The translations under genes were made by a program, and so were the position numbers. A stretch of DNA of 64,000 bases from a virus: UHGV virus genome UHGV-1364187; one strand, given 5' to 3'. The notes beneath the pieces were generated by a model. That model saw only the letters and a program-made list of their open reading frames with translations. It did no database searches and was not told the DNA's origin. The stretch's first letter is position 1. Each line of letters opens with the position of its first letter. Shown in pieces: positions 742 to 38,849 of this stretch.

Positions 742-1035
742 TTGGATGTTTTACAATATAATACACCATGTATGAAAACCGTATTAAATGAATACTTTGA
801 GGAATTAATGATAGTAAACTCTATTATATATAAATCGTATACTATATTAGATACATATATAGACAATAAAGATGATAAATTATCGGTTAAATTAGATTTT
901 GTATCTGAAGAAGATTGTTCATATATGTATCAATTAGTAAAGAATGTAAATATTATTAGATATAATAATACATTTAATATAGTTGGATTTATGATGTCTC
1001 CGACTAGTATTATGATAGCTATACATAAGATTTAA
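742..1035 (+). CDS. hypothetical protein
   Basis: ORF 733..1035; AGAGGAGG RBS at 726-733 favours the TTG at 742 (in frame) over the GTG at 733. Confidence 0.4.
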   Translation: MDVLQYNTPCMKTVLNEYFEELMIVNSIIYKSYTILDTYIDNKDDKLSVKLDFVSEEDCSYMYQLVKNVNIIRYNNTFNIVGFMMSPTSIMIAIHKI

Positions 1036-1054
1036 GATTAGGATGACCTAATCT
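1035..1054 (+). terminator. stem-loop AGATTAGG-atga-CCTAATCT overlapping the stop of the upstream gene
   Basis: perfect 8-bp inverted repeat; weak T tract after it. Confidence 0.4.
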
Positions 1055-1105
1055 TAAATCTTCAACATGTATGTAAATATAACTCATAGAAGGGAGAGTA
1101 ATATA

Positions 1106-2611
1106 ATGAACTATAAGCGTTTAAAAATAGAATTATTAGATCCAGATAGATTGGTAAAAGTTAACAATTTACCAGAGATATCAGATCCAATATTCTTTAA
1201 GAGAGATAATATTCCTACTGAAAAAGGTTTATTGTCTAATGAGTTATTTGGTAATACTATATACGAAAGAGCTAATATATTTGCGTATATAGATCTTGGT
1301 GATTATTTTATTAATCCATTGATATTTAAAACTCTATGTAAACTAAATGCTAAGTTTAAAGATGCTGTTCATGGAACAAAATACTTTAAAATAATAGATG
1401 GTGATTTAGTAGAAGATATGAATGGTGATACTGGATTGGTTTGGCTTAAAGAAAACTTTTCTAAAATTAAATTTAAGAAAACTACATCTGAAAAAAGAGA
1501 TGTGAATATCGAATTTATAGAAAAGAATAGAAATCTAGTATTTATGAACAAACTAATAGTATTACCTCCATATTATAGAGACGTTGATACATCTAATGGT
1601 AGAACTAGTGTAGGTGGAGTAAATAAGATATATAATCTTATATTATTATCTGTAAGATCATTAAAAGAAACACAAGATTATGGATTAAATATATCTGATT
1701 CTATTAGAGGAAGAATACAGGATCAAATTATTGGTGTGTATAACTTCTTTACTAAGGGAGATGATATGACAACAGGTATTGTTTCAGAAAGTGCTGGTTT
1801 ATCTAAGAAAATGGGATTAGTTCGTAGAGCATTATATGCTAAAACTGCTGACTATGGAGATAGACTTATTATATCTTCTGCTGATATCAATTATGATAGA
1901 ATAGATGATATGATTGTAGATTTAGACCATTGCGGTCTTCCATTATCAGCATGTCTGTCTAATATGTTCGGCTTTATAATGTTCAATGTAAAACGTTTCT
2001 TTGAAAATGAATTTTCTTCTCCAAAATATCCATATATAGATAAGAATGGGGAATTAAATTATGTAACAGTAAAGGATCCAAACTTAGCATTTTCAGATGA
2101 AGTTATTAAACATGAATTGGAAAGATTCATTAAGGGATATTCTAATCGTTTTATACCTATAGAAGTTCCGAATGAAGAAGGAAAGAAAATCTATATGAGA
2201 TTTAAAGGACGTAATAAAGTATTAACTAATGAAGATGATATGGATGATAAAACTGGTATTATTAATCGTAGATTAACATGGTGTGATGTTTTTTATATGG
2301 CTGCTGTTGAGTCTGCTAAAGATAAACATGCACTTTTAACACGTTATCCACTAAATGACTATTTTGGTCAAGTGCCAAATAAGATACATGTGTTATCTAC
2401 TATTAAGACAGAAAAAGTAATACTAGATGGACAAATATATCCATACTATCCATATATAAGAGAAGAAATGATTGGGACAGATACTTCTAATATGTTTATA
2501 GATACACTTCAAATATCAAATCTTTTATTAAAGGGACTAGAAGGTGACTTTAAAATAACCCATTGGAGTCATCTCTGTTGTTATAAACAACTAAAACAAA
2601 AACCTCTTTAA
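1106..2611 (+). CDS. multisubunit RNA polymerase beta-prime homolog, N-terminal fragment (exon 1; 3' end reads into a group I intron)
   Basis: RBS GAAGGGAGAG then ATG at 1106. GLLSNELFGNTIYERANIFAYIDLGDYFINPLIFKTL matches the beta-prime GLFCxxIFGP...GHIELAxPxxHIWF region. KLIVLPPYYRDVD matches the LPVLPPDLRP region. GLVRRALYAKTADYGDRLIIS...DLDHCGLPLSA matches the [26 protein letters not shown]...LHQCGLPKKMA region. No N-terminal zinc finger. The last ~15 codons (HWSHLCCYKQLKQKPL) are probably intron-encoded read-through. Confidence 0.75.
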   Translation: MNYKRLKIELLDPDRLVKVNNLPEISDPIFFKRDNIPTEKGLLSNELFGNTIYERANIFAYIDLGDYFINPLIFKTLCKLNAKFKDAVHGTKYFKIIDGDLVEDMNGDTGLVWLKENFSKIKFKKTTSEKRDVNIEFIEKNRNLVFMNKLIVLPPYYRDVDTSNGRTSVGGVNKIYNLILLSVRSLKETQDYGLNISDSIRGRIQDQIIGVYNFFTKGDDMTTGIVSESAGLSKKMGLVRRALYAKTADYGDRLIISSADINYDRIDDMIVDLDHCGLPLSACLSNMFGFIMFNVKRFFENEFSSPKYPYIDKNGELNYVTVKDPNLAFSDEVIKHELERFIKGYSNRFIPIEVPNEEGKKIYMRFKGRNKVLTNEDDMDDKTGIINRRLTWCDVFYMAAVESAKDKHALLTRYPLNDYFGQVPNKIHVLSTIKTEKVILDGQIYPYYPYIREEMIGTDTSNMFIDTLQISNLLLKGLEGDFKITHWSHLCCYKQLKQKPL

Positions 2612-3990
2612 CTGCTGGAAACTCCTTAGAGCTAAATAAACTACAACGTAATCTGTAAAGATAAGCGTGAATGTTTGAAAATTATTTAGATTGGACAATC
2701 AGCAGCCAAGTTATCAATTATAATTTAACAATAAATGAAATTATATAAGTGATAGTAATACATATTACTATACTAAAATATATAAGGAGGTATTGTTATG
2801 AATGATAATTTCATAGTACCAGCATTTATTGTTAAAGAAAAAAGTAAGAGAAGAATTTATGGAACATCTTTTACAAAAAGAACAAGAACTTATATTTTAT
2901 GGCTACACTATATTTGAATATCCAGAAGAATGGAGACCTATAGAATGCTTTGATATTAAAAAAGGATTATACTTAATATCTAATTATGGTCGTGTGTATA
3001 GTATGCAACACAATGTGAATTATCGGTTTTACCTAATGATGGTTACAGACAAGTTGTATTACAAACAAAAGACAATAAAAGAAAGACATATTCCATACAT
3101 AGATTAGTTATATATACATTCATTCCAAAAACTGATGAAGATATAATAAATCAAAGAGATTATATTAATCATAAGAATCTTCATAGAGATTGTAATTTCA
3201 CATGGAATCTTGAATATGTAACACCTAATGAGAATACTATACACGCTATAATTAATAATGCCATTGGTGAAGATTATTCTTATGAATATAGTGGAAATTG
3301 GAGTAAAGGTGAAAGAACATTCGGTGAAAATAACGGAATGTCAGAGTGGACAGAAGAACAAGTTCATATTATATGTCAAGCATTACAAGATGGGAAAATC
3401 TACAAAAGATGCATTAACTTTAGCTGGAATTCCTGTAACTGATAACGCTATTTATAATGTAAGTCATATTGTTCAAGGTAAAAGGTGGAAGTATATTTCT
3501 AGTCAGTATAATATTCAACAGAAATGGAAGATAACTGATAAATCCGATTTTGTAATTCCAGTATGTGAATTGTTAGAGAAAGGTTATAGTCCATCTGAAA
3601 TTTATGAATTACTTCCAGATATTCTTGGTAAAAGAGATAATGTATTACCGTTTATACGAGGTATTAAAAGACGTAAATATTATACTAATATTAGTAAGAA
3701 TTATAATTGGTAAAAGGTTCAACGACTATCGAAAAGACATGTGCAAACATGGAACTTAGTAGAGTACACTTTATATAAAGTGGAAATGGGAGGCTTCTCT
3801 ATAAAGAGATGAAGATATAGTCTATCCGATATAGAAATATATCGCTATACTTATACGGATATTATAAATATTTCGTTATTTATAAAAATGATAGTCGTAT
3901 AAGTATTAAATTCCGAAGATGGGGACCAACTTTCGAGTAAAGTAGCGTATACGCTTGAAGCTAATGATGAGCTTGATAAGTATATGAATT
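2556..3990 (+). mobile_element. group I self-splicing intron carrying a degenerate HNH homing-endonuclease ORF; boundaries approximate
   Basis: 5' block TAACTGCTGGAAACTCCTTAGAGCT...AATCAGCAGCCAAGTT (CTGCTG/CAGCAG pairing) and 3' core GTTCAACGACTATCGAAAAGACATGT...ACATGGAACT.AGTAGAGTACAC...AGTGGAAATGG...GATATAGTCT (P7-like GACTAT/ATAGTC) are shared with the second intron at 37.4-37.8 kb. The HEG ORF sits in a peripheral loop between the two blocks. Confidence 0.7.
2799..3713 (+). pseudogene. HNH/NUMOD4 homing endonuclease gene, interrupted by at least three frameshifts
   Basis: Frame A 2799-: MNDNFIVPAFIVKEKSKRR. Frame B 2829..3107: PEEWRPIECF...YLISNYGRVYS (NUMOD4-like). Frame C ~3026..3440: GYRQVVLQTKDNKRKTYSIHRLVIYTFIPKTDEDIINQRDYINHKNLHRDCNFTWNLEYVTPNEN (HNH motif). 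Frame D 3258..3713: GKSTKDALTLAGIPVTDNAIYNVSHIVQGKRWKY (C-terminal HTH typical of HNH HEGs). The shifts coincide with the A6 run at ~2836, the T4 run at ~3027 and the A4 run at ~3408. Confidence 0.7.
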
Positions 3991-4114
3991 CTAACTCATA
4001 TTATATCGACATGGGTGGAAATTGTATTCGTACAACGACCAACGAAGCAATTCAAGCTATATACTCTTTAACAAAAGTTGTAGATAAATCGAAATTAACA
4101 GATCCAATATTCTA
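3957..4114 (+). CDS. putative short 3' exon of the RNAP beta-prime N-fragment gene (LEANDELDKYMNSNSYYIDMGGNCIR...DPIF*)
   Basis: Open frame immediately after the intron 3' core, ending at TAA ~4112-4114 and followed by a strong terminator. The exact 3' splice site is not determined. Confidence 0.3.
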
Positions 4115-4126
4115 AAATATAATAAT

Positions 4127-4160
4127 AGATTACACTATTTTTAGTGTAATCTATTTTTTA
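4127..4160 (+). terminator. rho-independent terminator AGATTACACTA-ttttt-TAGTGTAATCT then TTTTTTA
   Basis: 11-bp perfect stem plus T tract right after the 4114 stop. Confidence 0.75.
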
Positions 4161-4206
4161 ATTATATATTATACATATGAATATAATATTAAAAGGAGAG
4201 ATGTAT

Positions 4207-5404: not shown

Positions 5405-5442
5405 TCTCAATTATATATTATAACTATGAATAATATACATTG
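5405..5442 (+). promoter_or_regulatory. plus-strand copy of the conserved phage promoter motif TCAATTATATATTATAACTATGAATAATATA
   Basis: matches the consensus TTCAATTATATATTATATAAATGAATAATAATATT found upstream of many minus-strand genes, here in the opposite orientation; no protein gene follows. Confidence 0.5.
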
Positions 5443-5651
5443 ATTATATTATTGGAGCGTTATAATATTTGATTGGGAGACGATAATATGGTGACAAGAA
5501 TAAGGAATAGTATATCGTAATTGTACGGATGTCAAGACGTGTTATATTTAACTAGAAAGGGGGATTCGTACCATGCCAGACGATTACGAAACATACGGAA
5601 CAGAGTATTAAATAGTATTAATCCCAAAAAACATTAAAAACTGTTTTTTAT

Positions 5652-5692
5652 AAACACTAGATAGATTGGTAGCTATCTAGTGTTTATTTTTT
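5652..5692. terminator. terminator AAACACTAGATAG-loop-CTATCTAGTGTTT then ATTTTTT, between convergent transcription units
   Basis: 13-bp perfect stem; T tract on the plus side, A-rich on the other. Confidence 0.7.
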
Positions 5693-5693
5693 A

Positions 5694-6248
5694 TTATTTT
5701 CTGTGTTGTCTTCTTGTGTTTACATTTATTTGAGGTTTAACTGCTTCTTTTACTGGTACTTCAGTAGTGGTTTCTTCTACTTTAGTTTCTTCAGCAGTTA
5801 CTACTTCTTCTGCTGGAGCTAAATCATCAACTTTGGTTTCTTCTTTTACTGGAACTTCAGTAGTGGTTTCTTCTACTTTAGTTTCTTCTTTAGCTTCATT
5901 AATTGATTCTTTTACTAATTCTTCTGTAGATTTAACTTCTACAGCTTCATTCTTAATTTCTCCTTTAGCTTGTTTAACAGCTTCTTCAACAGCTTTTTCT
6001 AATTGAGGTTTGAATCCTAATTTTGTAGGATCAACAACAATTTTTCCACCATTGTCTTTATTATAATTAGTAAAGTTTAGTCTTACAATATCTCCATTTG
6101 GTAAGATTTCATCTACAGTAGCTCCTCCGACTAAACATCTGTAAATTTGATCTTCAGTCATTTGTCTATTTGAAAATTTACCAATTAATGGAGTAATATC
6201 TACACCATGTACTGGTGTGTTTGCTTTTACATTAACTTTTTTCATCAT
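5694..6248 (-). CDS. repeat-containing protein with conserved N-terminal domain and C-terminal (K)VEETTTEVPVKE tandem repeats; possibly virion-associated
   Basis: ORF; GC content above the local background; a ~95-nt unit is repeated at 5759-5795 and 5854-5890. Confidence 0.55.
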   Translation of the reverse strand: MMKKVNVKANTPVHGVDITPLIGKFSNRQMTEDQIYRCLVGGATVDEILPNGDIVRLNFTNYNKDNGGKIVVDPTKLGFKPQLEKAVEEAVKQAKGEIKNEAVEVKSTEELVKESINEAKEETKVEETTTEVPVKEETKVDDLAPAEEVVTAEETKVEETTTEVPVKEAVKPQINVNTRRQHRK

Positions 6249-6451
6249 TACACCCCTAACTGTCTATCGATTTCATCATCTTCATAATCATCTGGAAATA
6301 CACCATCTTCATCACAATCTAAAGTAGCAGATTCATTAATAGATGTTTGTGTATCAATTGGAACAGAACTAAATACTCTGTCTAAAACAGACTCTAATAA
6401 TGTTTCATTTTCAGATTGTTCTGAAATCATCTCATTAAATGTTTTGTACAT
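6248..6451 (-). CDS. small acidic hypothetical protein
   Basis: ORF; its stop overlaps the downstream start. Confidence 0.45.
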   Translation of the reverse strand: MYKTFNEMISEQSENETLLESVLDRVFSSVPIDTQTSINESATLDCDEDGVFPDDYEDDEIDRQLGV

Positions 6452-6453
6452 TG

Positions 6454-7671
6454 TTATTTCCTCCTTTTAGTCATTTTTACTATTTTGTTAGCATTATAAT
6501 TAAGTATATAGATTACTATAGGAATCAAATAGTATAATCTTTTATTTTTTGAGAATACAACTTCTTCTAATGTCTCTATATCAGCTTTGGTTATAGTTTT
6601 ATTATTCATGTAGTTTATAATTATATTCTCTAAGTGATCTGGCATATCTAATGGTTCGTCATCTACTATAGCTTCTATAAGTTTTACATCTATAGTTTCT
6701 ATTGTTGTATAACAAGCCAATACAAATTCATCTTTTTGAATATAATGTGGTCTATAATATGATTCTTGCCTCATACTCAATATAGAATTTATCTGATTTA
6801 TATTATCAAGATAAGCATTATAATAACAATCTTCTAGTTTATTTTTGTCTTTATCTTCTATATGCCTAAAGAATGTTTTATCATACTCTAATGAGAATGT
6901 TGGTTCTAGATACATTTGTTGAGTATAACAAGAAAAGTTCTTATCATATGATAATATCTTATTTCTTATTAAGAACTCATTTAATGCAGGATCATAGACA
7001 AATTGTTCATTATATTGTAATATGAAAGATTCTACTCTAGTATTAAAAAATAAATCTATATAATATTCAATAAGCTTAGAAATTAATACATCTATAGCAG
7101 TTAAAAAATCAAAATCGGTTTTTTCTATATATGCGTTATATTCTGTACCGATATTATTTATTACCATTTCATATTCACCGACTATCTTGTCTAATACACC
7201 ATCTGGGTTATTTCTAGTATAAGAATATGAAATAGAGTAAACTGTTTCTACTTCTGGAGTACCGTATTCAACTTTAGTAACTTTGAATAGATATTGATTA
7301 TCATAATGGTTTATAATAAAGTAATCATTTGCTTTTGGAACAAATCCTGGAAGCATAGTACATTCACCTTCTATATCTCCAGATTCCAATCCAAAATCTC
7401 CTAGTTCCATCGATAACGTGAGTTTCTCTAATCCATATAAGATTACATTATTAATCTTCTTGAACTTTATAGGCGAATCTTTACCTCTATCAGAATAAGC
7501 TTTAAGATTACCTTCATCTAATGTAGATAATTCTTCTGATTGAGATAAATATGTAACTATAGTTTTACCTTTATCTAATAATGGATAATATGGATTATTA
7601 TGCATATTTTTAAATCCATCTGTAAGTTTATCTACAGTATTTTGTATATTCATATTGACAAACTTTCCCAT
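6454..7671 (-). CDS. hypothetical protein (405 aa) with C-terminal hydrophobic helix
   Basis: ORF preceded by AAGGAGG; no recognisable motif. Confidence 0.5.
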   Translation of the reverse strand: MGKFVNMNIQNTVDKLTDGFKNMHNNPYYPLLDKGKTIVTYLSQSEELSTLDEGNLKAYSDRGKDSPIKFKKINNVILYGLEKLTLSMELGDFGLESGDIEGECTMLPGFVPKANDYFIINHYDNQYLFKVTKVEYGTPEVETVYSISYSYTRNNPDGVLDKIVGEYEMVINNIGTEYNAYIEKTDFDFLTAIDVLISKLIEYYIDLFFNTRVESFILQYNEQFVYDPALNEFLIRNKILSYDKNFSCYTQQMYLEPTFSLEYDKTFFRHIEDKDKNKLEDCYYNAYLDNINQINSILSMRQESYYRPHYIQKDEFVLACYTTIETIDVKLIEAIVDDEPLDMPDHLENIIINYMNNKTITKADIETLEEVVFSKNKRLYYLIPIVIYILNYNANKIVKMTKRRK

Positions 7672-14630: not shown

Positions 14631-15231
14631 TTAAGTAAATAGGTTAATAAGTTTTAAATTAATCTTATCAGCAACAAATAATGCTAATTCTTCTGGAAGA
14701 AGTACTTTGTCACCAATGATATTAAGATTATATCTAACCATTGCCATATAAACAGCATTTCCAATATATCTACGTGGATTAGAATACAATCTAAATGGTG
14801 TATGTACAAAGAAAGTATCAAATTGTTCTTTCTCTACTTCATTATCTAGTATTGTATTATATCCAAATAGCTCTTTAATAATTTGTTCTTCTGTTTGTGT
14901 TTTACAACAAATAGTTAGTTCTATCATACTTTGATGTTGTGCAGCGTTTACAACATTAAAAATATTATCATTCGCTATAAGATTACTTGTAATGATATCA
15001 TTATATTTCACTATTAGATCTTTCTTTCTATTTTCCAATTGTTCATCTGTTTCGTTTGGATAATCTATAGATAGTACATTATATCTAGTTCTATTTTGTA
15101 ATAACTCATATACTTCTTTACATGGTTTTATATCACTAAGATTATTAATATTATGGTTCATATATAATATAGCATAGTCGTAGTTCAATAACATATCAAA
15201 ATCGACTAGTAAAATATCTTTATCGTCCATG
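14631..15231 (-). CDS. hypothetical protein
   Basis: ORF track 14631..15479 trimmed to the ATG at 15231, which removes the overlap with the upstream gene and sits next to a terminator. Confidence 0.4.
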
Positions 15232-15247
15232 TACGTCTCTCCTTTCT

Positions 15248-15285
15248 GATAAAAAATAAAGAGCGATATTAATATCGCTCTTATG
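15248..15285 (-). terminator. terminator AAGAGCGATATTAATATCGCTCTT
   Basis: 12-bp palindrome plus T tract. Confidence 0.65.
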
Positions 15286-15288
15286 TTT

Positions 15289-16071
15289 TTATAATAAACT
15301 TTGTAAATCAGCTTCAACATCATCAGATGATGTATTTTCTGATGAATTGTTTCTTCCTGGATTATCAAAGATACCCCTACCAGAAGAACCATTATGTGGT
15401 TTATTTCCGTATTGTTTCTTTTCAATTCCAAGTTTCTCACAAATAGCTTTACGATCATTATATGCACCATTGTCTGCATATCTGTTTAAATCATTGATGG
15501 AATATGCAATAGCATTAGTAGAAGCTTTAACATATTCTTCTAATGTAATTTTAAACATTTCTAACTCTGCCATACCATAGAATACTTTGTCATATTCTTT
15601 AGTATTTTTATCGAAATTCCTAATGGCATATTTATCACCTACAAACTCATATGCATAAGTATATACAATATCACCATTTTCATCAATCTTTCTTAAAAAC
15701 ATTAATGGTTGAGTAATACCAAATTCTGTACCATTACTAATAGATAATAATGAACCAGAATTATTTACACAACCAACGTTATTATAAGCCATAGGGTCTT
15801 GTAAGAACGTTTCAATTTCTTTGATAAGAATAAGTGCATCCATATGATTAATGTAAATAACACCACTATTATCATAATCATATCTAGCATTATCTGGTGT
15901 AGAATTTTTAAGCATTGGTGAAAATACTAATTTCATCATACCAAATAAATATTTGATTTGATATGTTGAAGGATCTACAGTTGAATTTGGATTGTAGAAC
16001 CTTAATCTTGTAATTGCTTCTCTTGCTTCGATTTTATTATCGTTTTGATTACTTCCATTTCCTAATGCCAT
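15289..16071 (-). CDS. possible ssDNA-binding protein (gp32-like)
   Basis: Start trimmed to the ATG at 16071 preceded by AAGGAGG. Acidic C-terminal tail SSDDVEADLQSLL resembles the gp32 C-terminus. AITRLRFYNPNS loosely matches gp32 AVIRFLPSKND. Weak call. Confidence 0.35.
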   Translation of the reverse strand: MALGNGSNQNDNKIEAREAITRLRFYNPNSTVDPSTYQIKYLFGMMKLVFSPMLKNSTPDNARYDYDNSGVIYINHMDALILIKEIETFLQDPMAYNNVGCVNNSGSLLSISNGTEFGITQPLMFLRKIDENGDIVYTYAYEFVGDKYAIRNFDKNTKEYDKVFYGMAELEMFKITLEEYVKASTNAIAYSINDLNRYADNGAYNDRKAICEKLGIEKKQYGNKPHNGSSGRGIFDNPGRNNSSENTSSDDVEADLQSLL

Positions 16072-27859: not shown

Positions 27860-29428
27860 TCATAGTTTCTTTATTATAAATGCTGGTACTATATAAGCAG
27901 GTTTAATCATACATCCATTATATATTCCACTATTATCTATAAATGCTGGTATTTGTAAATTCTTTTTAGGAGTAAGTTCTTTAGATTTTGTTACTAATGT
28001 AAAATCATCTAAAGTTATTACATTATAGCTCTTAGCATATGTTTTAAATATATCTTTTTTACTATTAAAGAAATCTCTACATGATTTAAATCCTATATCT
28101 ACTATATCTATATATTTTGTATTATTGCCTCTTGTTCTACCTAAAGTTTGTCTCGCTAATACTTCTGATCTAAAAGGTTCGGCTAACATAATTGTCATTT
28201 GTAATCCTCGTATATCAGTTGCAGCTCCACAACTTTTAGTAGTACTAAGAATAATATCACATTGTAATTGGTCTTCTTTATTACCTTGAACTTTGGAATG
28301 ATATTTTCCAACACTCAGATTAGGATATTCATTTAATATCCAATTATATACATAGTCTATAGCATCTATAGTGGCTAAATATATAAGTGTCTTTCCATGT
28401 TTCATGGCTATATTAATTACTATTCTGAGCATATGAATGAAATTCTGTTGTTTACATACATAATTGGCATAATTTACAGAACTAAATCCTTTTCTAGTTC
28501 TGCAATTTTGTATATCTCTTGCTGTAGGTCTAGAATTATATTTAATTGCTATATAATCGGTATGTGGATCATTATCTCCATCAAACAAATCTATAGATGG
28601 GACATTTTTAAAGTAATAATTATATATTACATTCTCATCTCTACTACTTCTTGCTGGAGTAGCTGTAATATAGAATGTCTTATAAGTATTTGTATAGAAA
28701 TCTATTTTACAAATATTATCGAAGTTTAAATGTGCTTCATCATAAAATTTAAGTCCTATCTTCATAAATTTAAACAATTCTGTTATCTTATCCCATCCAT
28801 TCTTTTCACCATACGATCTTAATGTTGCATGTGTAGCCAATATATATTTATATTGAGATATATCTTTTTGTAATAACCTTACTATGGAACCAGAACCCTC
28901 TATAATATATATTTCATCAGATGATGTATTTGTATATTCCATTATACAATTTTTCCACTGTTCTATCCATCCACTAGAATTCATTATAAATATACTTCTC
29001 ATCTTATATAAAGTGGTAACAGCTATAGAGCAATATGTTTTACCTTTACCAGTATTAAGATTTAATGCAAGTTGAGAATACTTCTTTGTGAAATCATATT
29101 CCTTTACACCATACATAAATGCTATAGCTCTTTTTTGTATATCATCTCTTGGCATATATTTCATTTTAGATGGTTCTATATGATCATATTTATCTACATT
29201 TCTATCTATAGATGCATATGATTGAAACATATTTTCTAACATTGGAACATCTATTCCTCTTGGTAATATAAGCTGTTGAGTATCTTCTTTGTATTCCATT
29301 CCTTTAAAATATGAAGAGAATGTAATGTCATTCCAGAGACTGAACATATACTCAAGTTGTGGCATATCACAAAGTGTATATTTATTTATAACTATACTTG
29401 ATTGTCTTAATTGTATCTTGCTAGACAT
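27860..29428 (-). CDS. SF2 DEAH-box DNA helicase; C-terminal tag AYIVPAFIIKKL
   Basis: Walker A LNTGKGKT; motif II FYDEAH; motif III ITATPAR; motif VI QTLGRTRG. Confidence 0.75.
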   Translation of the reverse strand: MSSKIQLRQSSIVINKYTLCDMPQLEYMFSLWNDITFSSYFKGMEYKEDTQQLILPRGIDVPMLENMFQSYASIDRNVDKYDHIEPSKMKYMPRDDIQKRAIAFMYGVKEYDFTKKYSQLALNLNTGKGKTYCSIAVTTLYKMRSIFIMNSSGWIEQWKNCIMEYTNTSSDEIYIIEGSGSIVRLLQKDISQYKYILATHATLRSYGEKNGWDKITELFKFMKIGLKFYDEAHLNFDNICKIDFYTNTYKTFYITATPARSSRDENVIYNYYFKNVPSIDLFDGDNDPHTDYIAIKYNSRPTARDIQNCRTRKGFSSVNYANYVCKQQNFIHMLRIVINIAMKHGKTLIYLATIDAIDYVYNWILNEYPNLSVGKYHSKVQGNKEDQLQCDIILSTTKSCGAATDIRGLQMTIMLAEPFRSEVLARQTLGRTRGNNTKYIDIVDIGFKSCRDFFNSKKDIFKTYAKSYNVITLDDFTLVTKSKELTPKKNLQIPAFIDNSGIYNGCMIKPAYIVPAFIIKKL

Positions 29429-36326: not shown

Positions 36327-37373
36327 ATGGTCTTAGAAGAAAATTTAAATGATATGGAAGTTATCAAAAGATACAAGCAATTTTTTAAGGAGATGATTTG
36401 GTTTAATAAACCAAACATATCTGAGCAAGAATTAGAAGATGTAATGAATTGGTCAATACAGAAGAGAATCAAAAATTCATCATTAGAATTATATGATTCT
36501 TATAAGGAAAAACGAGCAGATTCATCAGTATTAGAATGGCTAGAATACTTCTATGCTAATGAACCAATTATAACTCCCAATGGGGTTATGTTTAAAAAAC
36601 ATAATGAAGAGCTTAATCCTGTGAATAAAATGATACAGGGATTCTTAAAAACACGTGCTAAATACAAAAAAGAAATGTTTAAATATCCTAAAGGATCTCG
36701 TGAATTTGAAAAATATAACCTACTTCAACTTCTCTCCAAGATTGATGCTAATAGTATATATGGTTGTTTAGGTAATTGGAGTGCTGTATATTATAACGTA
36801 AATGTTGCTAGTTCAGTTACAGCATGTGGTAAATCTTCTATTTCAGCAGCAGGTTTAGCATTTGAACAGTTCTTAGCAAATAACGTTAAATTTAGAAAGT
36901 TAGACGAAGTTATAGTATTTATTAATCATATCATTAAAGAAAAACCAAATAGAAAATTCAATGATAAAGATATTCTAGATAGAGATATTACAGTAGAAGA
37001 ATGTTTTATAAAAGTAATGTCTACATGTGGTCATGGTTATACTCCTTCTATGGAAGATTGTGAAATCATATGGGATATTATTAGTAAACTTAACAGTGAA
37101 GATCTTAATAGAATATACTATAAGAATAATCTATTAGAATTCTTTGACAATAAAGTAATGACTAATATGGTTATAGAAGTATTAAAGAGACTCAATAAAC
37201 CTTGGATGGATCCGAATAAAGTTCCAAAAGAAATTGAACTTGAAATGGATACAATGTGGGATTTAGTAAGTGAATATGTATTTTATAAATATCAAATCAT
37301 TGATAGACAAGATAGATTAGAGTTTCTTCCAAGAAAAATTACATGTATTATAGACACCGACTCTTTTGCATAA
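36327..37373 (+). CDS. family-B DNA polymerase, C-terminal (palm/thumb) part, exon 1
   Basis: Motif B QLLSKIDANSIYGCLGN (KxxxNSxYG) followed by ASSVTACGKSSI. Motif C TCIIDTDSFA (DTDS) lies at the very end of the ORF. No motif A (DxxSLYPS) and no exonuclease domain, so the N-terminal half must be encoded elsewhere. Confidence 0.75.
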   Translation: MVLEENLNDMEVIKRYKQFFKEMIWFNKPNISEQELEDVMNWSIQKRIKNSSLELYDSYKEKRADSSVLEWLEYFYANEPIITPNGVMFKKHNEELNPVNKMIQGFLKTRAKYKKEMFKYPKGSREFEKYNLLQLLSKIDANSIYGCLGNWSAVYYNVNVASSVTACGKSSISAAGLAFEQFLANNVKFRKLDEVIVFINHIIKEKPNRKFNDKDILDRDITVEECFIKVMSTCGHGYTPSMEDCEIIWDIISKLNSEDLNRIYYKNNLLEFFDNKVMTNMVIEVLKRLNKPWMDPNKVPKEIELEMDTMWDLVSEYVFYKYQIIDRQDRLEFLPRKITCIIDTDSFA

Positions 37374-37778
37374 TAAACTGTTTTATTATGTAAATAGGAG
37401 CATTATATAGTAATATATAATGAAAACCCTTTTAATTGCTGGGAAGCCTTAAAGCTCACCTGCCTATATTTTAATGAATATAGGAACGAAAGTAGAAACA
37501 AGTGGTGAGATAGTATATGGTGTAAACCTAAGTACTGCAAACAATGGGTAATCAGCAGCGAAGTTTCTTATAAAGTTATAAGAAGAACGTTCAACGACTA
37601 TCGAAAAGACATGTTTATATAAACATGGAACTGAGTAGAGTACACTCAAGTGAGTGGAAATGGAGGGGGTCTTATTTTATATAAGATCATGATATAGTCT
37701 GCTCACTATGGAAACATAGTGAAGTTCATAAGAGAACTGCATAGAATTAACGACTCTATGTGAACATAAAGGAATATT
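37368..37778 (+). mobile_element. ORF-less group I intron inserted immediately after the PolB DTDS codons; boundaries approximate
   Basis: TTAATTGCTGGGAAGCCTTAAAGCT...AATCAGCAGCGAAGTT and GTTCAACGACTATCGAAAAGACATGT...ACATGGAACTGAGTAGAGTACAC...AGTGGAAATGGAGGGGG...GATATAGTCTGCTC match the intron in the beta-prime gene block for block (P7-like GACTAT/ATAGTC). A P9-like hairpin CACTATGgaaaCATAGTG follows. Confidence 0.75.
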
Positions 37779-38849
37779 TTGAACTTAGATTTTTGGTATA
37801 GATTTATCAAAGATAAAGTAATCGGTATTGATATGAAAATTAAACATGAAATGTATGACATTGCAGAAATCATTAAAGCTGATGAATTTGGTGATAGAGA
37901 AATGATGAAGCCTGCAGAGATAGTAGATATCGAAGATGATTATGATTTCTATGAAGATGAAACAGTAGAAATGGAAAGATTAATCAATCCTGCAAAATTA
38001 GTACCAAATGACTCATTAAGATATTCTATAATAAATATTATAGCATACTTATGTGGTAATATGATTAATGAAGAGATGGTATTATACACAAAACAGAACA
38101 ATTCTTATAGTCCTGATAGACCATGTAGTCTTATTATGAAGAATGAATTCTTATTTAAAAGAGTTTTATTGACAAATGTAAAGAAAAGCTACGCTAGCAT
38201 CATAGAGGTTCAGGAAGGAAATATAGTACCATCTTCCAGTTCATTGGACGTGAAAGGATTACAAATTAGAAAATCAACACTACCAAAAAGAACAAGAGAT
38301 CAATTACAAAGTATATTATATGAAGATATACTAAACTCTGGAGATAATCTCGATCAAAGATGCATACTCAAAGATATTATATTATTAGAAAAACAAATTT
38401 ATAAATCACTTACATCTGGTAGTAAAGAATACTTTAGACCAGCACAAGTTAAAGCTATGGGATCATATGAAAATCCACTAAGAATTTCTGGATTTAAGGG
38501 ATGTGTTGTATGGAATGAGTTAACAGATCTTAATACAGAAAAACATGATCTTAATATTAGAAATGCTGTTGATATTATCAAAGTAGTTTTAAATGCAAAA
38601 ACTGTCGATAAATTAAAAGATTTTCCTGATGTATATGAGAGAGCTGTGAAGCTATTAAACGATCCATCATTTGCAGGGGGAATTAATGGTATATCTGTAC
38701 CATTAGGAGTAGAAACACCAGAGTGGTTATATCAAATTATCGATTATAATACAATTATTAATGATAATTTATCAGTAATGCCATTAGAAAGTGTAGATAT
38801 AATTATTGGAAATTCCAATATAAACTATTCAAATATGGTGCAAATGTAA
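37779..38849 (+). CDS. family-B DNA polymerase, exon 2 (thumb)
   Basis: Open frame resumes right after the intron core. The ORF-track TTG at 37779 is not a real start. Exact 3' splice site not determined. Confidence 0.6.
   Translation: MNLDFWYRFIKDKVIGIDMKIKHEMYDIAEIIKADEFGDREMMKPAEIVDIEDDYDFYEDETVEMERLINPAKLVPNDSLRYSIINIIAYLCGNMINEEMVLYTKQNNSYSPDRPCSLIMKNEFLFKRVLLTNVKKSYASIIEVQEGNIVPSSSSLDVKGLQIRKSTLPKRTRDQLQSILYEDILNSGDNLDQRCILKDIILLEKQIYKSLTSGSKEYFRPAQVKAMGSYENPLRISGFKGCVVWNELTDLNTEKHDLNIRNAVDIIKVVLNAKTVDKLKDFPDVYERAVKLLNDPSFAGGINGISVPLGVETPEWLYQIIDYNTIINDNLSVMPLESVDIIIGNSNINYSNMVQM

What the first reader, a model, noticed from the sequence alone, without database searches (positions are those of the whole stretch)
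2556..3990. Second, related group I intron inside the RNAP beta-prime N-fragment gene carries a decayed HNH/NUMOD4 homing endonuclease
The beta-prime homolog ORF (from 1106) runs into a segment whose 5' block (TAACTGCTGGAAACTCCTTAGAGCT...AATCAGCAGCCAAGTT) and 3' core (GTTCAACGACTATCGAAAAGACATGTGCAAACATGGAACTTAGTAGAGTACAC...AGTGGAAATGGGAGG...GATATAGTCTATCC) match the PolB intron. A 915-nt HNH-endonuclease reading frame sits between them.

The endonuclease frame is broken at least three times, at A6, T4 and A4 runs. NUMOD4 (EEWRPI...ISNYGRVYS), the HNH core (HRLV...INHKNLHRDCN...NLEYVTPNEN) and the C-terminal HTH (GKSTKDALTLAGIP...GKRW) each lie in a different frame.

So one genome holds the two states of a homing intron: an ORF-containing copy with a decaying endonuclease gene and a streamlined ORF-less copy. 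The endonuclease N-terminus also begins with the FIVPAF tag.
Basis: partly seen in the sequence, partly recalled or inferred. Interest (0 to 1): 0.6.

Follow-up and report, generated by a model that had tools for sequence, protein, structure and literature searches.

The report
Phage RNA-polymerase intron with broken endonuclease
A self-splicing group I intron sits inside the catalytic-site codons of a jumbo phage's RNA polymerase gene; its homing-endonuclease gene is disabled by three real one-base indels, which is ordinary for such phages, but the intron ends in A instead of the near-universal G.

Summary
The finding holds. Window 1106-2551 plus 3918-4115 encode a jumbo-phage virion RNA polymerase beta'-N subunit. 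A 1366-nt group I (IA2-type) intron, 2552-3917, interrupts it between the F and the second D codons of the catalytic DFDGD motif. Intron-less alleles in close relatives confirm the junction.

An I-HmuI-like NUMOD4/HNH endonuclease gene (2798-3713) lies in the P6a loop. It is broken by three 1-nt indels: +1 in the A6 run 2838-2843, -1 T at 3002/3003 (not the T4 run), and +1 in the A4 run 3395-3398. Sister phages carry intact 300-302-aa versions at the same site. The region is 100% identical in seven other contigs from short-read assemblies, so these are mutations, not sequencing errors.

The PolB intron (37365-37781) is a paralogue of the same intron family, not the same element in another state. 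Sister phages show the homing cycle better, at this very site: intact ORF, broken ORF, no ORF, no intron.

One thing is unexpected. The last intron nucleotide is A, not the near-universal G, here and in four sister lineages, although the guanosine-binding P7 is canonical. This has a precedent only in a coral mitochondrial intron. Splicing is inferred, not shown.

The parts
1106..2551 (+). Exon 1 of the virion RNA polymerase beta'-N gene (482 codons, ends ...GGT GAC TTT = G D F)
   Evidence: The spliced 547-aa product aligns over residues 6-541 in one piece with intron-less Listeria phage LPJP1 rpoC1 (35% identity) and with Staphylococcus, Bacillus and Fusobacterium jumbo-phage beta' genes.
2552..3917 (+). 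Group I intron (IA2-like), 1366 nt; first nucleotide A2552, last nucleotide A3917
   Evidence: Boundaries are fixed by the D-F|D-G-D junction. The spliced sequence is collinear at nucleotide level with the intron-less allele L028 (GAT TTT GAT GGA GAC). P1 and P10 pairings agree. Rfam half-hits.
2543..2573 (+). P1: exon strand GGUGACUUU (2543-2551) pairs with the internal guide GGAGUCAUC (2565-2573), with a U2551.G2565 wobble at the 5' splice site. CCCAUU (2559-2564) is the P10 guide for exon 2 GAUGGG (3918-3923).
   Evidence: Read from the sequence. P1 and P10 covary across 7 orthologous introns, e.g. CCGUU/GAUGG or GACGG, CCAUCA/UGAUGG, GCCGUU/GAUGGC.
2577..2721 (+). 5' ribozyme block: P2 (2577-2591), P3 5' strand (2603-2608), P4 (2613-2618 with 2699-2704), P5/P5a, P6, P6a 5' strand (2713-2721)
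   Evidence: Rfam model positions 60-139. 91-95% identical to orthologous introns. Helices 97.5% paired, with compensatory changes.
2784..2790 (+). Ribosome-binding site AAGGAGG, 7 nt upstream of the endonuclease ATG at 2798
   Evidence: Read from the sequence. The same AAGGAGG plus ATG arrangement occurs in L004 and L007.
2798..3713 (+). I-HmuI-like NUMOD4/HNH/C-terminal-HTH homing-endonuclease pseudogene in the P6a loop. Indels: +1 in A6 run 2838-2843, -1 T at 3002/3003, +1 in A4 run 3395-3398. Stop codon TAA at 3711-3713.
   Evidence: Frames. NUMOD4 29.1 bits, PHROG 59 E 1e-29. Intact homologues at 58-76% identity. Nucleotide alignment locates the indels. Family profile hits I-HmuI, PDB 1U3E, E 4.7e-15. 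No start codon opens the HNH core frame.
3703..3844 (+). 3' ribozyme core: P6a 3' strand (3703-3711, overlapping the last codons YNW-stop), P6, J6/7, P7 (3724-3729 with 3817-3822), P7.1, P7.2, P3 3' strand (3788-3793), P8, P9 hairpin (3827-3844)
   Evidence: Rfam hit 3710-3844. Core motifs TTCAACGACTATCG and GATATAGTCT occur exactly, and only here and in the PolB intron. Covariation in P7.2, P8 and P9.
3845..3917 (+). Peripheral P9.1-type hairpin (UACUUAUACG...CGUAUAAGUA) and 3' tail AAAUUCCGAA ending in A3917 (the omega position)
   Evidence: Read from the sequence. The tail is variable, but the last nucleotide is A in 5 lineages.
3918..4115 (+). Exon 2 of beta'-N (DGDQLSSKVAY...DPIF, 65 codons plus stop 4113-4115)
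   Evidence: 81.5% identical to exon 2 of sister contigs and collinear with intron-less genes. No in-frame start codon between the stop at 3900-3902 and 3918.
4124..4155 (+). Intrinsic-terminator-like hairpin (14 bp) plus T-run just after the beta'-N stop codon
   Evidence: 2 sites found against 0.6 expected.
37365..37781 (+). ORF-less group I intron in the PolB gene (comparison element); junction DTDS|NLDFWY; last nucleotide G37781
   Evidence: Rfam 81.6 bits. The junction fits AR9 and S6 intron-less DTDSNF...LD.FY.

Best explanation
This is a group I (IA2-type) intron that entered the virion RNA polymerase beta'-N gene of a roughly 256-kb AR9/PBS1-like gut jumbo phage. It sits exactly between the F and second D codons of the Mg-binding DFDGD motif.

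Proposed mechanism:
- After transcription the ribozyme folds. P1 pairs exon 1 GGUGACUUU with the guide at 2565-2573. P10 pairs exon 2 GAUGGG with 2559-2564.
- Splicing joins 2551 to 3918 and restores DFDGD.
- The P6a loop carries an I-HmuI-like nicking HNH endonuclease gene. Its last codons double as the 3' strand of P6a.
- In sister phages that gene is intact. It presumably drives homing into intron-less alleles and possibly interference with co-infecting relatives.
- In this phage three independent 1-nt indels have silenced it, so the intron is now an immobile, vertically inherited passenger. It is kept only because the ribozyme is needed to express an essential gene.

Shown: anatomy, junction, indels, orthologous states, conserved and covarying ribozyme helices.
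Inferred: splicing in vivo, nicking and homing activity of the intact relatives, and that splicing proceeds with a terminal A.
For: Host gene and junction:
- The spliced product is collinear with intron-less beta' genes.
- P0050 and P0054 (548 aa, 78% and 73% identity) read LEGDFDGDQ without interruption.

Ribozyme:
- Rfam half-hits.
- 77-85% identity of the 5' block to known phage introns.
- The ORF-less orthologue L025, at the same site, gives a full-length Intron_gpI match: 37.3 bits, E 5e-8.
- On 7 orthologous introns the P1-P10 model is 97.5% paired, with 24 pairs changed on both sides. Slid controls give 35-47% paired and 1-6 such pairs.

Endonuclease:
-.
- dN/dS of the repaired gene against intact ones is 0.16-0.25, the same as among intact genes. 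So the inactivation left no detectable trace of relaxed selection and is probably recent.

Not sequencing error:
- 100% identity in seven contigs from other assemblies.
- Long intact ORFs elsewhere in the window.

Viability:
- The same phage sequence recurs in several samples. So the essential beta' gene must be expressed despite the broken endonuclease and the terminal A.
Against: - The terminal intron nucleotide is A3917, not G, although P7 (GACUAU/AUAGUC) is the canonical guanosine-binding helix. With a G-specific pocket the second step is expected to be poor.
- No spliced transcript or exactly spliced protein is on record.
- Neither Rfam half reaches the gathering score.
- Pfam HNH_3 does not score on the repaired protein. 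Only NUMOD4 does.
Confidence: 0.85

Rival explanations
1. The three frame breaks are homopolymer sequencing or assembly errors, and the endonuclease is in fact intact.
For: Two of the three indels lie in A runs (A6, A4). The rest of the ORF is perfectly conserved, with no stops once repaired.
Against: Window 2400-4200 is 100% identical over the covered parts in seven contigs from other assemblies (MEGAHIT and SPAdes naming), and five of them cover all three indels. Gene callers found the same 39/82/151-aa fragments in those contigs. Three indels in 916 nt would imply about 200 in the window, yet ORFs of 405-522 codons are intact. The middle indel is in a TT dinucleotide, not a long run.
Confidence: 0.03
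2. The intron is splicing-dead because it has lost its terminal G, and the beta'-N gene is a pseudogene or is expressed in some other way.
For: The last intron nucleotide is A, with a canonical G-binding P7. No spliced product is on record.
Against: Both exons keep long open frames under conservation: 75-80% protein identity to sister phages, and exon 2 is 81.5% identical. Exon 2 has no start codon of its own. Every ribozyme helix is intact and covaries. Four sister lineages with terminal A still carry intact endonuclease genes. The phage recurs unchanged in several samples. A natural terminal-A group I intron is known to splice accurately in vivo (ND5-717, PMC8146996).
Confidence: 0.07
3. Splicing uses a terminal G after all. 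The 5' splice site is one base downstream (after A2552) and the 3' splice site follows G3918, giving D-F-N-G-D instead of D-F-D-G-D.
For: This register gives a terminal G in every lineage examined, because every one of these introns starts with A and exon 2 starts with G.
Against: It replaces the central catalytic Asp by Asn, whereas all intron-less alleles encode Asp. It puts the 5' splice site at an A-U pair instead of the conserved U.G wobble. The wobble moves with the splice site in L008 (GACUU|U, P10 UGAUGG/CCAUCA), as the Asp register predicts. It also breaks the P1-P10 continuity on the guide sequence.
Confidence: 0.05
4. The broken endonuclease is still made, by programmed ribosomal frameshifting or as functional fragments.
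For: Two shift sites are A runs. The 151-aa C-terminal ORF (3258-3713) has its own ATG.
Against: Three successive shifts (+1, -1, +1) would be needed. Intact relatives have no shift at any of these sites. The HNH catalytic segment (about 3003-3397) has no start codon in its frame.
Confidence: 0.03

Closest known systems
Intron with homing endonuclease in the virion RNAP beta'-N gene of Staphylococcus jumbo phages Madawaska and Machias (GenBank MW349129, MW349128; Korn et al., bioRxiv 10.1101/2020.12.14.422802), and introns in AR9 RNAP genes
   Same: Same host gene in the same phage group (AR9-like). A group I core with the same P7 and J6/7 motifs. An endonuclease ORF inside the intron. A DNA polymerase gene in the same genome that is also interrupted.
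   Different: The Madawaska intron sits 3 nt downstream (DFDG|D), ends in G, and has almost no P9 tail. Its endonuclease is annotated as intact. The host genes are only about 30% identical.
PhiPA3 gp210 intron (Birkholz et al. 2024, Science; PMC11620839)
   Same: An HNH nicking homing endonuclease in a group I intron that interrupts a jumbo-phage virion RNAP gene next to conserved catalytic aspartates. It gives a plausible selective role (interference competition) for the intact relatives.
   Different: That intron is in the beta subunit gene (gp211/209), not beta'-N. The endonuclease is active. The host is a nucleus-forming Pseudomonas phage.
I-HmuI and the SPO1 DNA polymerase intron (PDB 1U3E)
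   Same: The profile of this endonuclease family matches I-HmuI over its N-terminal and HNH domains, E 4.7e-15. It is encoded in a phage group I intron in a polymerase gene at a catalytic motif.
   Different: The window copy is frameshifted three times. This family has an extra N-terminal IPAFI segment and a longer C-terminal region. Nicking was not tested.
Twort-type IA2 phage introns (Twort nrdE and orf142 introns)
   Same: 79.6% identity over the P3-P6 block. P7.1/P7.2 insertion between P7 and P3'. Canonical P7.
   Different: Those introns end in G (from my own knowledge, not checked here). Host gene and guide sequence differ.
Hexacoral mitochondrial ND5-717 group I intron (PMC8146996)
   Same: A natural group I intron whose last nucleotide is A rather than G, and which is nevertheless spliced accurately in vivo.
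   Different: It is mitochondrial, vertically inherited, has no endonuclease, and carries ND1/ND3 in P8. It is an unrelated lineage. Here splicing has not been observed.

Membership tests
Group I intron (Rfam RF00028) | Conserved core helices P3-P9 with the P4/P6 and P3/P7/P8 domains | tested here: met
   Rfam matches to model positions 60-139 and to P7-P9. All helices form in the window sequence. On 7 orthologues, 97.5% of cells are paired and 24 pairs have compensatory changes.
Group I intron (Rfam RF00028) | Score at or above the family's gathering threshold (50 bits) | tested here: not met
   25.2 and 27.8 bits for the two halves, split by the ORF. The ORF-less orthologue L025 scores 37.3 bits, E 5e-8. 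The PolB paralogue scores 81.6 bits.
Group I intron (Rfam RF00028) | 5' splice site after a U paired with G in P1; internal guide also pairs with exon 2 (P10) | tested here: met
   U2551.G2565. P10 is 2559-2564 with 3918-3923. Both covary, and the wobble shifts with the splice site in L008.
Group I intron (Rfam RF00028) | Guanosine-binding G-C pair in P7 | tested here: met
   CAACGACUAUCG and GAUAUAGUC are identical to the family consensus, and identical in lineages ending in A and in G.
Group I intron (Rfam RF00028) | Last intron nucleotide is G (omega-G) | tested here: not met
   A3917. No register with a terminal G restores DFDGD. The same holds in L004, L007, L023 and L008. G is present in L010, L020/22, L025, L029, L030, Madawaska and the PolB intron.
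Group I intron (Rfam RF00028) | GTP-dependent self-splicing | not testable with these tools
   No transcript data. Exact spliced proteins are absent from the collection.
HNH homing endonuclease, I-HmuI-like (NUMOD4 + HNH + C-terminal DNA-binding domain) | NUMOD4 domain and HNH motif | tested here: met
   PF07463 at 29.1 bits spans the second indel in the repaired protein. HRLV...INHKNLHRDCN...NLEYVTPNEN is conserved with intact homologues. The profile hits 1U3E at E 4.7e-15. Pfam HNH_3 itself did not score.
HNH homing endonuclease, I-HmuI-like (NUMOD4 + HNH + C-terminal DNA-binding domain) | Uninterrupted reading frame | tested here: not met
   Three 1-nt indels relative to four intact orthologues, reproduced in other assemblies.
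HNH homing endonuclease, I-HmuI-like (NUMOD4 + HNH + C-terminal DNA-binding domain) | Site-specific nicking of the intron-less allele | not testable with these tools
   A candidate target is known from the intron-less allele L028.
Jumbo-phage virion RNA polymerase beta'-N subunit | Homology to annotated beta'-N and a restored D[FY]DGD metal-binding motif near the C-terminus | tested here: met
   30-35% identity over 97-99% of the length to LPJP1, S6, SA1, BpSp and Goe21. LEGDFDGDQ after splicing.

The most novel reading that the evidence does not exclude
A subclade of gut jumbo-phage group I introns (this window, L004, L007, L023, L008) splices accurately in vivo with a terminal adenosine, despite a canonical guanosine-binding P7. 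The 3' splice site would then be chosen mainly by the strong, covarying P10 (5-6 bp). This would be the first omega-A group I intron outside coral mitochondria, and in a small phage ribozyme that is tractable in vitro. Sister introns ending in G at the same site would serve as natural controls.
Probability: 0.55. Interest if true: 0.6.

Novelty: new variant of a known kind. Interest (0 to 1): 0.42.

Why it matters
As reported, an intron with a decaying endonuclease in a jumbo-phage RNAP gene is another example of something already annotated in AR9-like and PhiKZ-like phages. Two things add value.

First, one insertion site (D[FY]|DGD of beta'-N) now shows every stage of the homing cycle across related gut phages. 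This gives material for dating endonuclease loss and for testing interference competition of the kind shown for PhiPA3 gp210.

Second, a terminal A with an unchanged G-binding site contradicts the textbook requirement for omega-G in the second splicing step. If these introns self-splice, they offer a simple system for two questions: how the 3' splice site is recognised without omega-G, and whether omega-A serves to suppress 3'-site hydrolysis and circularisation, as proposed for ND5-717.

Tried and rejected
Searches that found nothing:
- Near-identity search of 1000-4200 against 50,697 phage records: no match, so the phage is not in GenBank.
- The search for related loci with the single beta' protein in IMG/VR, and with the alignment in JGI metagenomes: nothing. 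The alignment in IMG/VR gave 4 loci.
- Exact look-up of eight conceptual spliced proteins (Asp and Asn versions for four lineages), looking for assembled cDNA: none on record.
- Rfam at gathering threshold on six related loci: no hit, even for ORF-less introns.
- Rfam in E-value mode on the whole window returned only a weak MicX hit and did not list the PolB intron found. I did not rely on that run.
- Literature searches for exceptions to omega-G: two were rejected for syntax, one was uninformative, one led to ND5-717. The AR9 genome paper is not held.

Readings considered and rejected:
- 3' splice site after G3915 or G3918 with any 5' site in GGUGACUUUAAA. These give frameshifts, a stop, an inserted Lys, or loss of an Asp.
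- Exon 2 translated independently: there is no start codon.
- An A-specific nucleotide pocket: P7 is unchanged.
- J8/7 GAAG (lineages ending in A) versus AUG (lineages ending in G) as a compensating change. GAAG is the general group I consensus, so this is probably only phylogenetic signal.
- Promoter scan: not above chance.
Full report
**What is there.**
The window is AT-rich (26.6% G+C). It has no close relative among 50,697 GenBank phage records. It lies on a 256,505-bp metagenome contig (ERZ27229639).

The ORF starting at 1106 runs in frame to GGT GAC TTT (G-D-F, ending at 2551) and then reads on into a stop at 2609-2611. Downstream, from 3918, an open frame begins GAT GGG GAC CAA (D-G-D-Q) and ends at a stop at 4113-4115. 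A 14-bp terminator-like hairpin follows at 4124-4155.

Joining 2551 to 3918 gives a 547-aa protein. It aligns in one piece, over residues 6-541 or 6-544, with intron-less beta' genes of AR9-like jumbo phages:
- Listeria phage LPJP1 rpoC1, 35% identity.
- Staphylococcus phages S6, SA1 and PALS_2; Bacillus phages BpSp and Goe21; Fusobacterium phages.

The Staphylococcus homologues are annotated as 'viral RNA polymerase beta-prime subunit, N-terminal'. The junction falls inside the catalytic D[FY]DGD motif.

Close relatives have uninterrupted alleles. P0050 (78% identity) and P0054 (73%), both 548 aa, read LEGDFDGDQ. At nucleotide level the spliced window sequence is collinear with the intron-less allele L028...GGA GAT TTT GAT GGA GAC CAA.... 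The intron is therefore 2552-3917, 1366 nt.

**The ribozyme.**
Rfam's group I model matches both ends of the insert on the + strand: positions 60-139 (P4-P6) at 2613-2751, and P7-P9 at 3710-3844 (E about 1e-3 to 1e-4). Each is below the 50-bit gathering score because the ORF splits the model. The 5' block is 77-85% identical to known phage group I introns: Twort nrdE, PALS_2, phiR1-37, PBS1 and SPO1-like DNA polymerase introns.

By inspection the helices are:
- P1: GGUGACUUU (2543-2551) with GGAGUCAUC (2565-2573), ending in a U.G wobble at the splice site.
- P10: GAUGGG (3918-3923) with CCCAUU (2559-2564), directly adjacent on the guide.
- P2, P3 (2603-2608 with 3788-3793), P4 (2613-2618 with 2699-2704), P5/P5a, P6/P6a.
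- P7 (3724-3729 with 3817-3822), then the P7.1/P7.2 pair typical of subgroup IA2, P8 and P9 (3827-3844).
- A long peripheral hairpin before the 3' end.

I collected orthologous introns at exactly this site from related metagenome contigs: L004, L007, L023, L008, L010 and L025. I replaced each ORF by a GAAA loop and counted pairs on the alignment. Of all cells, 97.5% pair, and 24 of 80 pairs show changes on both sides. With the partner slid by 1-3 columns, 35-47% pair and 1-6 pairs show such changes. The structure was drawn on the window sequence, which favours the unslid register. The compensatory changes in P1, P10, P2, P5a, P7.2, P8 and P9 do not depend on that.

L025 is an ORF-less intron at the same site in a relative that is 57% identical. 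It gives a full-length Rfam match of 37.3 bits, E 5e-8.

**The endonuclease gene.**
An AAGGAGG site (2784-2790) precedes an ATG at 2798. The coding sequence then runs in three frame pieces to TAA at 3711-3713. A repaired translation has these properties:
- It carries NUMOD4 (29.1 bits, spanning the second break) and matches PHROG 59 'HNH endonuclease' at E 1e-29.
- It aligns end to end with intact 300-302-aa proteins at 58-76% identity.
- A profile of the family hits I-HmuI, the SPO1 intron nicking endonuclease (PDB 1U3E), at E 4.7e-15.

All the intact relatives I looked up lie in the same intron at the same site of the same gene.

Nucleotide alignment with four of them shows exactly three 1-nt indels:
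- An extra base in the A6 run 2838-2843.
- A missing T at 3002/3003 (AGTTATG to AGTATG).
- An extra A in the A4 run 3395-3398.

There are no internal stops once these are repaired. dN/dS against intact genes (0.16-0.25) is the same as among intact genes (0.12-0.26). So the inactivation left no detectable trace of relaxed selection and is probably recent, although dS is near saturation. The HNH core segment has no start codon in its own frame, so no catalytic fragment can be made.

The ORF lies in the P6a loop. Its last codons (Y-N-W-stop, 3703-3713) form the 3' strand of P6a with 2713-2721. This explains why YNW-stop is invariant in the family and is retained as a remnant (TYN-stop) in the ORF-less L025.

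**Real mutations or errors?**
The exon-1 ORF (501 aa) and the 151-aa fragment are found in the parent 256-kb contig L011 and seven further contigs, from several samples and assemblers (MEGAHIT k127/k119 and SPAdes naming). The gene calls show the same 39/82/151-aa fragments. Those seven contigs are 100% identical to window 2400-4200 over the parts they cover, with no gaps. Five of them cover all three indels. Elsewhere in the window, ORFs of 405-522 codons are intact. The indels are therefore genuine.

**Relation to the PolB intron.**
The PolB intron is 37365-37781. Its junction DTDS|NLDFWY matches DTDSNF...LD.FY in the intron-less AR9 and S6 genes, and it ends in G. It is the only other place in the window with the exact core motifs.

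Its 3' core is 81.5% identical to the beta' intron, the same as the orthologous beta' introns of sister phages (71-81%). Its 5' block is only 58% identical, against 91-95% for the orthologues. It is thus a paralogue of the same IA2 family with a different guide sequence, not the same element in another state.

The two introns of this genome do share a P7.1 stem (GACAUG...CAUGG) that the orthologues lack. That might reflect exchange between them, but it is only a 5-bp stem.

The homing cycle is better documented at the beta' site itself:
- Intron with intact ORF: L004, L007, L008, L010, L023.
- Frameshifted ORF: this window.
- ORF-less intron: L025.
- Empty site: L028/P0050, P0054, L019, L021.

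**The unexpected point: no terminal G.**
Restoring DFDGD fixes the intron's last nucleotide as A3917 (...AAAUUCCGAA|GAUGGGG). I tried every combination of a 3' site after G3915 or G3918 with any 5' site in GGUGACUUUAAA. These give a frameshift, a stop, an inserted Lys, or loss of a catalytic Asp.

The same holds in four sister lineages, whose tails differ:
- L004: CUGAAA|GAU.
- L007: UUCGA|GAU.
- L023: GCAAAA|GAC.
- L008: UUCUUAA|UGAU. Here the U.G wobble and P10 both move one base upstream, which confirms the register.

More distant lineages at the same site end in G: L010 CCUG|GAU, L020/22 UGUGUG|GAU, L025 UUAAG|GAU, L029 CGAUG|GAU, L030 UAAUG|GAU. So does the Madawaska intron, 3 nt downstream.

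P7, which holds the guanosine-binding G-C pair, is identical in all of them.

One register does give a terminal G everywhere: 5' site after the first intron A, 3' site after the first exon-2 G. It would encode DFNGD, replacing an essential Asp that all empty alleles encode. It would also place the 5' site at an A-U pair. I consider it unlikely.

A natural precedent for a terminal A exists. The hexacoral mitochondrial ND5-717 intron is spliced accurately in vivo, and its authors suggest that omega-A suppresses 3'-site hydrolysis and circularisation (PMC8146996).

Four points argue that the phage introns ending in A splice:
- Four of these lineages keep intact endonuclease genes.
- The window phage recurs unchanged in several samples.
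- The exons are conserved.
- Exon 2 has no start codon of its own.

In the window phage, splicing would also have to proceed without help from an intact intron protein. That is inference. No transcript evidence was found.

**Comparison with what is known.**
Introns in RNAP subunit genes of AR9-like jumbo phages are described. Madawaska and Machias have annotated introns in this very gene, one with a homing endonuclease. In PhiPA3, an HNH endonuclease in a group I intron of the vRNAP beta gene nicks the homologous gene of PhiKZ and gives a competitive advantage (PMC11620839).

Homologues of this beta'-N gene in metagenomes are interrupted at at least three positions around the motif: before the first D, D[FY]|DGD, and D[FY]DG|D. 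The motif is therefore a hot spot.

The finding as written is a new member of a known kind. The absent omega-G makes it a variant.

**Verdict.**
- Observation: confirmed, with corrected coordinates.
- Interpretation: supported, apart from the loose 'two states' claim.
- Mechanism: a self-splicing intron, now immobile. Confidence 0.85 for the identity of the element, and lower (about 0.7) for accurate self-splicing with a terminal A.
- Interest: moderate, carried mainly by the terminal-A subclade and the complete homing-cycle series.

Noticed in passing
window 3917; L004 7163, L007 7100, L023 6372, L008 5118: The last intron nucleotide is A, not G, in five related beta' introns with canonical P7. 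Five more distant orthologues and the PolB intron of this window end in G. The only precedent found is the coral mitochondrial ND5-717 intron.
   Followed up: yes
window 27860-29428 (- strand), C-terminus near 27952 and 27889; window 2810-2830: The IPAFI/IVPAFI motif at the endonuclease N-terminus (conserved in the intact homologues) also occurs twice in the last 30 residues of a ResIII/SF2 helicase-like ORF (QIPAFID and YIVPAFIIKKL-stop). It may be a short docking motif shared by DNA-metabolism proteins. Its partner is unknown.
   Followed up: partly
P0049-P0168; L002 4386/5826: Metagenomic homologues of beta'-N are cut by introns at three or more positions within a few codons of the motif...GG|(D), D[FY]|DGD, D[FY]DG|D. 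The DFDGD codons are an insertion hot spot for different introns.
   Followed up: partly
L004 vs L007 (5733-7164 / 5733-7101): These two contigs are identical through exon 1, the 5' ribozyme block and the start of the endonuclease gene. They diverge in the rest of the endonuclease gene, P7.1, the P9 tail and the synonymous sites of exon 2. That is a mosaic pattern, as expected from homing-associated recombination.
   Followed up: no
window 3733-3752 vs 37605-37630: The P7.1 stem (GACAUG...CAUGG) is shared by the two introns of this genome but not by orthologous beta' introns of sister phages. This may reflect exchange between the two introns, or chance.
   Followed up: partly
L008 3763-3800: This orthologous intron has no P2 hairpin: P1 is followed directly by the P3 strand.
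   Followed up: no
window 2744-2768: A hairpin (AUAGUAAU-ACAU-AUUACUAU) lies just upstream of the endonuclease ribosome-binding site. A hairpin of different sequence occupies the same place in L004 and L007. It may control ORF translation.
   Followed up: no
L020 / L022 (IMG/VR contigs), 5434-6666: An intron at the same D-Y|DGD site carries its ORF downstream of the J6/7-P7 motif rather than in P6a. So the ORF position differs between orthologous introns.
   Followed up: no
window 15195-15295 (- strand): Weak Rfam match to MicX sRNA (30 bits, gathering score 75, E 0.01), probably chance. The same E-value run failed to list the PolB intron that the gathering run found.
   Followed up: no
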